DNA of 29,757 bases from a virus (taxonomy: Duplodnaviria > Heunggongvirae > Uroviricota > Caudoviricetes). Below, piece after piece: positions 27,753 through 29,647 of the stretch. The translations under genes and the position numbers were made by a program. The notes beneath the pieces are model-generated. The model made no database searches. It saw only the letters and a program-made list of their open reading frames with translations, and had not been told where the DNA came from. The stretch spans positions 1 to 29,757 of IMG/VR virus record IMGVR_UViG_2534681675_000023. The stretch is one strand, 5' to 3'. Numbering within the stretch: the first letter of the stretch is position 1; each line of letters begins with the position of its first letter.

Positions 27753-29647
27753 TTTCGTATTGGCAGTGAAGGCGGGTCTCTCAGTCCTGAAAAGACCATT
27801 GCCAATGACCCCCGTTGAATGGGCGGATGCCAATTACTATCTCCCGAAAGAATCTGCATACCAGGAAGGGCGCTGGGAAACACTGCCCTTTCAGCGGGCC
27901 ATCATGAATGCGATGGGCAGCGACTACATCCGCGAGGTGAATGTGGTGAAGTCTGCCCGTGTTGGTTATTCCAAAATGCTGCTGGGTGTTTATGCCTACT
28001 TCATAGAGCATAAGCAGCGCAACACCCTTATCTGGTTGCCGACGGATGGTGATGCCGAGAACTTTATGAAAACCCACGTTGAGCCGACTATTCGTGATAT
28101 TCCGTCGCTGCTGGCGCTGGCCCCGTGGTATGGCAAAAAGCACCGGGATAACACGCTCACTATGAAGCGTTTTTCCAATGGTCGTGGCTTCTGGTGCCTG
28201 GGCGGTAAAGCGGCAAAAAACTACCGTGAAAAGTCAGTGGATGTGCGGGTTATGATGAACTTGCTGCCTTTGATGAGGATATTGAACAGGAAGGCTCTCC
28301 GACGTTCCTGGGCGATAAGCGTATTGAAGGCTCGGTCTGGCCAAAGTCCATCCGTGGCTCCACGCCCAAAGTGAGAGGCACCTGCCAGATTGAGCGTGCA
28401 GCCAGTGAATCCCCGCATTTTATGCGTTTTCATGTTGCCTGCCCGCACTGTGGGGAGGAGCAGTACCTTAAATTTGGCGATAAAGAGACGCCGTTTGGCC
28501 TCAAATGGACGCCGGATGATCCCTCCAGCGTGTTTTATCTCTGCGAGCATAATGCCTGCGTCATCCGCCAGCAGGAGCTGGACTTTACTGATGCCCGTTA
28601 TATCTGCGAAAAGACCGGGATCTGGACCCGTGATGGCATTCTCTGGTTTTCGTCATCCGGTGAAGAGATTGAGCCACCTGACAGTGTGACCTTTCACATC
28701 TGGACAGCGTACAGCCCGTTCACCACCTGGGTGCAGATTGTCAAAGACTGGATGAAAACGAAAGGGGATACGGGAAAACGTAAAACCTTCGTGAACACCA
28801 CGCTCGGTGAGACGTGGGAGGCGAAAATTGGCGAACGTCCGGATGCTGAAGTGATGGCAGAGCGGAAAGAGCATTATTCAGCGCCCGTTCCTGACCGTGT
28901 GGCTTACCTGACCGCCGGTATCGACTCCCAGCTGGACCGCTACGAAATGCGCGTATGGGGATGGGGGCCGGTGAGGAAAGCTGGCTGATTGACCGGCAGA
29001 TTATTATGGGCCGCCACGACGATGAACAGACGCTGCTGCGTGTGGATGAGGCCATCAATAAAACCTATACCCGCCGGAATGGTGCAGAAATGTCGATATC
29101 CCGTATCTGCTGGGATACTGGCGGGATTGACCCGACCATTGTGTATGAACGCTCGAAAAAGCATGGGCTGTTCCGGGTGATCCCCATTAAAGGGGCATCC
29201 GTCTACGGTAAGCCGGTGGCCAGCATGCCTCGTAAGCGAAACAAAAACGGGGTTTACCTTACCGAAATCGGTACGGATACCGCGAAAGAGCAGATTTATA
29301 ACCGCTTCACACTGACGCCGGAAGGGGATGAACCGCTTCCCGGTGCCGTTCACTTCCCGAATAACCCGGATATTTTTGATCTGACCGAAGCGCAGCAGCT
29401 GACGGCTGAAGAGCAGGTCGAAAAATGGGTGGATGGCAGGAAAAAAATACTGTGGGACAGCAAAAAGCGACGCAATGAGGCGCTCGACTGCTTCGTTTAT
29501 GCGCTGGCGGCGCTGCGCATCAGTATTTCCCGCTGGCAGCTGGATCTCAGTGCACTGCTGGCGAGCCTGCAGGAAGAAGATGGTGCAGCAACCAACAAGA
29601 AAACACTGGCAGATTACGCCCGTGCCTTATCCGGAGAGGATGAATGA
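27718..29647 (+). pseudogene. A: Terminase large subunit (lambda gpA-like) with two -1 frameshifts
   Basis: Three consecutive ORFs (27718-28374, 28371-28988, 28955-29647) in different frames together match lambda gpA nearly residue for residue; shifts at about 28246 (GATGTGCGGG, one G missing relative to the gpA reading) and about 28969 (GGCCGGTGAGG, one G missing). Confidence 0.8.

What the first reader, a model, noticed from the sequence alone, without database searches (positions are those of the whole stretch)
28240..28975. Two independent -1 frameshifts in G-runs split the terminase large subunit
The three-frame pattern matches gpA nearly residue for residue, with breaks at GATGTGCGGG (about 28246) and GGCCGGTGAGG (about 28969). 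Each looks like loss of one G relative to the continuous gpA reading. This is either genuine pseudogenisation of a packaging gene, consistent with the IS insertions, or homopolymer sequencing error.
Basis: partly seen in the sequence, partly recalled or inferred. Interest (0 to 1): 0.45.

Follow-up and report, generated by a model that had tools for sequence, protein, structure and literature searches.

The report
Twice-frameshifted lambda-type terminase gene
The DNA-packaging (large terminase) gene of a lambda-like prophage in E. coli strain 1.2741 is broken by two single-G deletions seen in no related genome; this is either an assembly error near a contig end or routine decay of an already crippled prophage, so it is ordinary.

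Summary
Window 27724-29647 is a lambda gpA-type terminase large-subunit gene read in three frames. Against every relative examined it lacks one G at 28245 (GTGGCGGG to GTGCGGG) and one G at 28970-28971 (CCGGGT to CCGGT). Putting both Gs back gives a 641-aa protein 100% identical to an intact protein found on 75 other contigs.

As written the gene is dead. The first break removes the Walker B motif and catalytic Glu179. The second splits the nuclease domain.

The window comes from the draft assembly of E. coli 1.2741 (AEZI02000018.1). The deletions lie 1.5 kb and 0.8 kb from the contig end. Neither allele occurs in 5,426 complete E. coli genomes, IMG/VR, JGI metagenomes or GTDB representatives. 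The closest relatives, which share the same IS21 insertion, are intact at both sites.

Real mutation and consensus error cannot be separated without reads. I lean slightly to error (about 0.5 against 0.43). Private differences cluster at the contig end, and the gene shows no other decay. Classic long-homopolymer miscalling is not supported. Programmed recoding is rejected. Nothing here is novel.

The parts
27029..27040 (+). cosN 12-nt cohesive-end sequence GGGCGGCGACCT, identical to that of phage lambda; the substrate site of the terminase
   Evidence: Single exact match, none in 100 shuffles. Identity to the lambda cohesive end is from my own knowledge of the lambda sequence.
27246..27752 (+). 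Terminase small subunit (Nu1 family, 168 aa), intact. It overlaps the start of the large-subunit gene.
   Evidence: Pfam Phage_Nu1 1.7e-21. The exact protein is listed in 1739 blocks of the public collection, and all 10 places shown have an intact 641-aa gpA downstream. Annotated 'terminase small subunit' in relatives.
27724..28374 (+). Terminase large-subunit fragment 1 (216 codons). gpA residues 1-173, including Walker A KSARVGYS, end at 28244. They are followed by 43 out-of-frame codons and a stop.
   Evidence: ORF list and translation. Pfam GpA_ATPase profile positions 3-131 of 247. Deposited as EIG82531.1 / WP_001364246.1 and seen on 1 contig only.
28245..28245 (+). Deletion site 1: a single G where all relatives have GG (GTGGCGGG to GTGCGGG). 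It falls at codon 174, at the V|AGYD-E179 Walker B motif.
   Evidence: Motif positions from PMC6379665.
28245..28988 (+). Middle gpA reading (frame 3): gpA residues 174-415, then 5 wrong codons and a stop. The first usable start codon is GTG at 28371 (205-aa ORF), so residues 174-215, including AGYDE, follow a stop with no start codon.
   Evidence: Translation, ORF list, Pfam GpA_ATPase 176-237 and GpA_nuclease 2-100. The 205-aa product EIG81966.1 is on 1 contig only.
28970..28971 (+). Deletion site 2: GG where all close relatives have GGG (GGGGGCCGGGTGAGG to GGGGGCCGGTGAGG). It falls at about codon 415-416, inside the nuclease domain just after the AGIDSQ strand.
   Evidence: Domain limits.
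28955..29647 (+). Terminase large-subunit fragment 3 (230 codons from ATG 28955). True gpA residues 416-641 run from 28972 to the stop.
   Evidence: Translation. Pfam GpA_nuclease profile 96-286 of 294. Deposited as EIG81440.1.
29644..29757 (+). Start of the gpW head-tail joining gene, cut off by the window end. The source contig ends 2 nt later.
   Evidence: Called gene of 39 residues with Pfam gpW at the contig end. Synteny A-W-portal in relatives.

Best explanation
This is the large terminase (TerL, gpA-type) gene of a lambda-like prophage integrated next to rspB in E. coli 1.2741. In the deposited sequence it is interrupted by two one-base G deletions and cannot encode a working enzyme.

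The first break cuts the ATPase domain exactly at the Walker B motif. The AGYD-E179 segment is left behind a stop codon with no start codon. The second break splits the nuclease domain.

I judge it slightly more likely than not that the two deletions are consensus errors of this draft assembly, and that the real gene is the intact 641-aa form. Both deletions sit in the last 1.5 kb of a 1.25-Mb contig that breaks inside a gene module present in several copies per genome.

Shown: the anatomy, the loss of function as written, the privacy of both alleles and their position at the contig end. Inferred: that they are errors.
For: 1. Source and position. The window is 100% identical to AEZI02000018.1 of GCA_000194175.2 (E. 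coli 1.2741) and ends 2 nt before the contig end. The deletions are therefore about 1515 and 790 nt from a contig break.
2. Privacy. No record among 5,426 complete E. coli genomes matches either 70-mer deletion allele at 99% or better, out of 3,817 and 4,653 matching places. There are no matches in IMG/VR, JGI metagenomes or GTDB representatives. The fragment 1 and fragment 2 proteins occur on this one contig only.
3. Closest relatives are intact. The genomes that share the same IS21 insertion are CP169309, CP169399, AP025751 and GL872058. The first three are intact at both sites, and GL872058, whose scaffold stops before site 2, is intact at site 1. AP025751 differs from the window by one SNP plus the two deletions over 14313-29160.
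4. No other decay. Repair gives 100% amino-acid identity to a protein seen on 75 contigs. All 10 of those contigs that were fetched carry the Gs.
5. Clustering. Of 7 differences private to this assembly, 3 lie in the last 1515 of 29757 nt: the two deletions and 29578A. My binomial estimate is about 0.004. No other indel occurs in the remaining 28 kb.
6. Multi-copy module. The A gene is present at 3-4 places in the nearest relatives. A sister draft also breaks inside it (L150).
Against: - The rest of the assembly is clean. All 208 homopolymer runs of 5 nt or more, including 11 inside this gene, agree with relatives. The runs hit are only 2 and 3 nt long, so this is not the usual length-dependent miscall.
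- The A-gene consensus matches the orthologous copy at every position that distinguishes paralogues. This argues against a collapsed-repeat consensus.
- Contigs normally keep full coverage up to a repeat boundary, and 0.8-1.5 kb is further from the end than a read length.
- The prophage is truly decaying, with a private IS629-like insertion in its replication gene.
- One-base frameshifts occur in 5 of 75 full-length gpA genes from IMG/VR.
- The very same delta-G at site 2 exists in an unrelated Logan assembly, so that deletion is not unique to this assembly.
- The sequencing technology of the assembly could not be established with these tools.
Confidence: 0.5

Rival explanations
1. Genuine, very recent pseudogenisation. 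One or both G deletions are real mutations that arose in the 1.2741 lineage after it split from its closest sequenced relatives. They would be neutral lesions in a prophage already disabled by IS insertions. The prophage then cannot cut cos or package DNA.
For: - The prophage has a private IS629-like insertion in the HTH_36 replication gene and a shared IS21 insertion after the endolysin gene, so it is plausibly defective and free to decay.
- The assembly is otherwise indel-free over 28 kb. Its IS21 genes are even intact where two finished relatives have 1-nt gaps.
- About 7% of gpA genes in IMG/VR contigs carry 1-nt frameshifts.
- Delta-G at site 2 occurs in a different prophage background (L009). 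A delta-C one base away occurs in contigs from 5 or more samples.
Against: - There are two indels against no substitution in 1.76 kb, in a lineage with only 4 other private substitutions in 28 kb. That is an unusually high indel share.
- A second hit in the same gene has no selective explanation. Under uniform rates, P is about 0.004 for both falling in gene A.
- No clone-mate or relative shares either lesion.
- Both lie close to a contig break.
Confidence: 0.43
2. Functional recoding or a functional split. The breaks would be bypassed by programmed -1 ribosomal frameshifting or transcriptional slippage, or the three pieces would work as separate polypeptides, possibly as a phase-variable switch.
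For: - Each break puts the downstream gpA reading in the -1 frame.
- A G5 run (28963-28967) lies just upstream of site 2. There a P-site tRNA-Gly could in principle slip back one base and give W-G-A-G-E instead of W-G-P-G-E. This is read from the sequence and is an inference only.
Against: - All homologues are continuous at both sites. This covers 120 or more IMG/VR contigs with the intact site-2 27-mer, thousands of places in complete genomes, and 75 contigs with the identical intact protein. The breaks are therefore not conserved.
- There is no X XXY YYZ slippery heptamer at either site, and nothing slippery at all at site 1.
- Walker B and Glu179 follow a stop with no start codon. [quoted passage not shown]
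- The G runs of 2-5 nt are too short for phase variation.
Confidence: 0.02

Closest known systems
Phage lambda gpA (terminase large subunit, TerL)
   Same: The repaired protein is 621/641 identical to a lambda-type gpA. It has the same Pfam GpA_ATPase (47-285) and GpA_nuclease (322-600) architecture. It carries Walker A KSARVGYS and Walker B VAGYD-E179. It has the same 12-nt cosN and the same cos-Nu1-A-W-portal order.
   Different: As deposited the gene is read in three frames. Eighteen of the first 30 residues differ, together with a divergent 168-aa Nu1 partner; similarity to lambda DNA begins at window 27801.
Intact orthologue WP_112044446.1 (E. coli MFDS1019527 and 75 contigs in public assemblies)
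   Same: Identical amino-acid sequence after adding back two Gs. Same prophage, same rspB integration site and same IS21 insertion.
   Different: The orthologue has GG at site 1 and GGG at site 2, plus 3 synonymous differences.
Defective lambdoid prophages of E. coli (for example the prophage pool of O157:H7 Sakai; from my own knowledge, not tested here)
   Same: Lambda-like prophages commonly carry IS insertions and frameshifted morphogenesis genes. Here there are two IS elements and a broken terminase gene. In a sample of IMG/VR contigs, 5 of 75 gpA genes were frameshifted.
   Different: Here the lesions are private to one draft assembly and unconfirmed at read level.
Programmed -1 frameshift of lambda tail genes G/GT
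   Same: Only the formal -1 frame relation between successive pieces.
   Different: No slippery heptamer, no conservation among homologues, and essential catalytic residues are lost.

Membership tests
gpA-type terminase large subunit (lambda TerL) | Matches to Pfam GpA_ATPase and GpA_nuclease above the gathering score | tested here: met
   Repaired protein: 172.8 and 251.5 bits against cut-offs of 25.6 and 22.5. Each of the three fragments also passes.
gpA-type terminase large subunit (lambda TerL) | Walker A KSA-R79-VGYS present | tested here: met
   VKSARVGYSK is in fragment 1. Motif from PMC6379665.
gpA-type terminase large subunit (lambda TerL) | Walker B VAGYD plus catalytic Glu179 in the same reading frame as Walker A | tested here: not met
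   The frame breaks between V173 and A174. AGYDE lies in frame 3 after a stop, with no start codon before GTG 28371. The sequence is a member by descent but not a functional member as deposited.
gpA-type terminase large subunit (lambda TerL) | Single ORF of about 641 codons | tested here: not met
   Three ORFs of 216, 205 and 230 codons. All relatives have 641.
gpA-type terminase large subunit (lambda TerL) | Packaging-module synteny: cos, Nu1, A, W, portal | tested here: met
   cosN at 27029-27040, Nu1 at 27246-27752, A, then the start of W. The portal follows in relatives.
Programmed ribosomal frameshift / recoding site | The frame change is conserved among homologues | tested here: not met
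   No deletion allele in 5,426 complete genomes, IMG/VR, JGI metagenomes or GTDB representatives. The intact form is ubiquitous.
Programmed ribosomal frameshift / recoding site | Slippery heptamer X XXY YYZ at the shift site | tested here: not met
   Read directly from the sequence. Site 1 is GAT GTG CGG. Site 2 is TGG GGG CCG GTG, with only a G5 run nearby.
Length-dependent homopolymer sequencing error (454 / Ion / nanopore type) | Indels concentrated in the longest runs and scattered through the assembly | tested here: not met
   208 runs of 5 nt or more in the window all agree with relatives. The two deletions hit runs of 2 and 3 nt. There is no other indel in 28 kb. Other kinds of consensus error are not excluded.
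True pseudogene | Lesions confirmed in reads or in an independent assembly of the same lineage | not testable with these tools
   No reads are available. No second assembly carries fragments 1 or 2. Attempts to reach other data of the strain failed.

The most novel reading that the evidence does not exclude
The CCGGG pentamer at gpA codons 414-416, next to a G5 run, could be a recurrent natural frameshift site in lambdoid terminase genes. Delta-G is seen in two different prophage backgrounds and delta-C in a third lineage found in 5 or more samples. A rare -1 slip on the G5 run might then still yield a little full-length enzyme, giving a leaky throttle on packaging. My estimate is that the observed recurrence is within what about 7% frameshifted copies among very many sequenced gpA genes would give. 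The exact-protein look-up could also only detect deletions in this 5-nt target. The evidence therefore does not call for a hotspot.
Probability: 0.03. Interest if true: 0.3.

Novelty: already known. Interest (0 to 1): 0.07.

Why it matters
It matters little. If the deletions are real, this prophage of a cryptic clade I Escherichia strain cannot package DNA. That adds one more lesion to an element already hit by two IS insertions. If they are errors, the finding is a caution: three deposited 'GpA-like' protein fragments (EIG82531.1, EIG81966.1, EIG81440.1) are artefacts of a contig end. In either case it shows how to triage such calls. The steps are to check whether the allele is private, how far it lies from a contig break, and whether longer homopolymers nearby are correct.

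Tried and rejected
- Literature on the assembly. Accession terms found no paper. The strain name found one paper, which only places 1.2741 in cryptic clade I. The sequencing technology stayed unknown.
- Reaching the strain's own reads or another assembly. Via its cluster id it returned only other strains, all intact.
- Reaching more of contig AEZI02000018.1 to measure its indel rate. The integrase and exonuclease look-ups returned other genomes only.
- Small-terminase look-up. The protein is too widespread to find clone-mates, and all 10 places shown had an intact 641-aa gpA.
- PDB sequence search with the repaired protein. No hit.
- First paper search for E179. No hit; the second search succeeded.
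- Hotspot idea for site 2. Rejected as unsupported. The delta-G and delta-C alleles are absent from all complete genomes, IMG/VR, JGI metagenomes and GTDB representatives. The exact-protein search could also only see deletions inside CCGGG.
- Import of the lesions by recombination from a decayed paralogue. Rejected, because no substitution accompanies them between 27700 and 29460.
- Programmed frameshift, split enzyme or phase variation. Rejected; see the rival explanations.

Full report
**What is there**

Window 27724-29647 (+) encodes a lambda gpA-type terminase large subunit, but in three successive frames. The ORF list gives three pieces: 27718/27724-28374 (216 codons from the ATG used in relatives), 28371-28988 (205 codons) and 28955-29647 (230 codons). 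Each piece hits the Pfam gpA models. Fragment 1 matches GpA_ATPase profile positions 3-131. Fragment 2 matches GpA_ATPase 176-237 and GpA_nuclease 2-100. Fragment 3 matches GpA_nuclease 96-286.

A global alignment of 27700-29757 with the nearest intact relative (E. coli MFDS1019527, NZ_CP169309.1) shows five differences. Two are one-base gaps, each a missing G, and three are substitutions.
- The first gap turns GTGGCGGG into GTGCGGG. The window has a single G at 28245.
- The second gap turns GGGGGCCGGGTGAGG into GGGGGCCGGTGAGG. The window has GG at 28970-28971.

Re-inserting the two Gs gives a 641-codon ORF. Its product is 100% identical to WP_112044446.1 and 621/641 identical to a lambda-type gpA. 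The three substitutions are therefore synonymous. The only correction is that the first lesion is in a GG doublet rather than a run.

**Context**

The window is a lambdoid prophage integrated next to rspB. It carries integrase, excisionase, exonuclease, dicB/DicF, a CI/Cro-type switch, a replication region, hok/sok, Q, holins and endolysin, Bor, cos, Nu1 and A.
- The 12-nt lambda cohesive-end sequence GGGCGGCGACCT is at 27029-27040.
- The Nu1-family small subunit at 27246-27752 is intact.
- An IS629-like IS3-family element (8322-9631, 3-bp duplication ATG) interrupts the HTH_36 replication gene.
- An IS21-family element (23257-25379) lies after the endolysin gene.

The prophage is therefore probably defective whatever the state of its terminase gene.

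**Consequence of the sequence as written**

The first break falls between V173 and A174. This is the Walker B motif VAGYD followed by the catalytic Glu179 of lambda TerL. [quoted passage not shown]

In the window, AGYDE lies in frame 3 directly after a stop codon. No ATG, GTG or TTG occurs before GTG 28371, so the segment cannot be translated. The second break, at about codon 415, lies inside the nuclease domain (322-600). The deposited sequence cannot encode an active terminase.

**Origin of the window**

The fragment proteins are deposited as EIG82531.1, EIG81966.1 and EIG81440.1 of Escherichia coli 1.2741. The window is 100% identical to contig AEZI02000018.1 of GCA_000194175.2. That contig is 1,253,925 nt long and ends 2 nt after the window. 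The two deletions therefore lie about 1515 and 790 nt from a contig break, within the start of the head-gene module. Strain 1.2741 is a cryptic clade I Escherichia (PMC3575317).

**How widespread are the deletion alleles?**

- No record among 5,426 complete E. coli genomes matches the 70-mer around site 1 or site 2 at 99% or better. There were 3,817 and 4,653 matching places, and every listed hit is one base longer than the query.
- Exact-pattern scans found neither allele in IMG/VR, JGI metagenomes or GTDB species representatives. The intact site-2 27-mer is in at least 120 IMG/VR contigs.
- The genomes that share the same IS21 insertion, and hence a recent ancestor, are CP169309, CP169399, AP025751 and scaffold GL872058. 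The first three carry the Gs at both sites, and GL872058 carries them at site 1, the only site its scaffold reaches.
- AP025751 differs from the window over 14313-29160 by one SNP plus the two deletions.
- The repaired protein occurs on 75 contigs. All ten that were fetched are intact.
- Fragments 1 and 2 occur on this one contig only.

The 230-aa third fragment occurs on 8 contigs. Six of them carry a different one-base deletion (delta-C, GGCCGGG to GGCGGG). One Logan contig (ERR4425660) carries the same delta-G in a different prophage background, with 28 mismatches to the window. These alleles are also absent from all complete genomes. The exact-protein look-up can only detect deletions inside the pentamer CCGGG. 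About 7% of gpA genes carry some 1-nt frameshift (5 of 75 full-length copies from IMG/VR, at five different places). The recurrence therefore does not require a hotspot.

**Real mutation or artefact?**

Points for artefact:
- Both lesions are private.
- The gene shows no other decay, with 100% amino-acid identity after repair.
- Three of the seven differences private to this assembly lie in the last 1515 nt: the two deletions and 29578A. The other four are 2409, 4391, 11949 and 23641. My binomial estimate is about 0.004.
- No other indel occurs in 28 kb.
- gpA is present at 3-4 places in the closest relatives. A sister draft also breaks inside the gene.

Points for real mutation:
- The assembly is otherwise clean. 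All 208 homopolymer runs of 5 nt or more agree with relatives, and its IS21 genes are intact where two finished relatives have 1-nt gaps.
- The lesions are not in the longest runs.
- The consensus follows the orthologous copy at every distinguishing position.
- The prophage is already decaying.
- Such frameshifts, including the same delta-G, occur in other assemblies.

Two indels in one gene are about equally improbable under uniform real mutation and under uniform error (about 0.004). A local cause is easier to imagine for error, namely a contig end in a near-repeat. I therefore put error at about 0.50, real mutation at about 0.43 and anything functional at about 0.02.

**Recoding**

Recoding is rejected. 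The breaks are not conserved in any homologue. There is no slippery heptamer. Site 1 has nothing slippery, and the catalytic segment is not translatable.

**Verdict**

This is an ordinary finding. It is a known kind of gene carrying either a sequencing or assembly defect or routine prophage decay. Only read-level data or resequencing of strain 1.2741 can decide. The positions to check are contig 1,252,411 and 1,253,136-1,253,137.

Noticed in passing
window 8322-9631 (compare L003 10924-12238): A 1310-bp IS3-family element interrupts the HTH_36 replication gene. It looks IS629-like (ends TGAACCGCCCCGG, ORFs of 108 and 295 aa, ALIL pseudoknot at 8657-8773, 3-bp duplication ATG). In relative MFDS1019527 the same kind of IS sits about 60 bp away in the opposite orientation. 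Other relatives have the gene intact. These look like two independent insertions into the same gene.
   Followed up: partly
window 23257-25379; L003 and L004 (NZ_CP169309.1, NZ_CP169399.1): An IS21-family element (6-bp duplication) is shared by 1.2741, both Korean MFDS strains, AP025751.1 and GL872058.1. In the window istA and istB are intact. The two finished Korean genomes have 1-nt gaps there (at window 24158, 24377 and 24612). Their annotation also lists the portal, ynfE and ynfG genes as frameshifted, which suggests indel errors in those 'complete' assemblies.
   Followed up: partly
window 14409-14583 (+), 4791-4842 (-): Rfam finds a sok antitoxin RNA next to a Hok/Gef ORF, and a DicF RNA next to dicB. 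A zeta-toxin family gene lies at 12854-13552 (-).
   Followed up: no
window 27724-27813 and 27246-27752: Eighteen of the first 30 residues of gpA differ from lambda's, together with a divergent 168-aa Nu1. DNA similarity to lambda-type phages starts at 27801. This looks like a module boundary that keeps the Nu1-binding N-terminus of gpA with its partner.
   Followed up: partly
window 27041: The base just after the 12-nt cosN sequence is A in the window and its IS21-bearing relatives, but C or T in other prophages with the same terminase.
   Followed up: no
L009 2830-5360 (Logan ERR4425660_140): In this contig the portal gene stops at 293 codons and is followed by an integrase, AlpA and Bro-N genes. 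This could be a satellite or island inserted into a prophage head gene, or a chimeric contig. The gpA gene of this contig carries the same delta-G at site 2.
   Followed up: no
L063 (IMGVR_UViG_2529292884_000006), gpA positions 1092 and 1102: Another gpA gene with two 1-nt deletions only 10 nt apart. Four further IMG/VR copies have single 1-nt indels at positions 722, 950, 1439 and 1720.
   Followed up: no
window 2409, 4391, 11949, 23641, 29578: Single-base differences private to the 1.2741 assembly against all relatives compared. 29578A is unique among 127 aligned gpA copies.
   Followed up: partly
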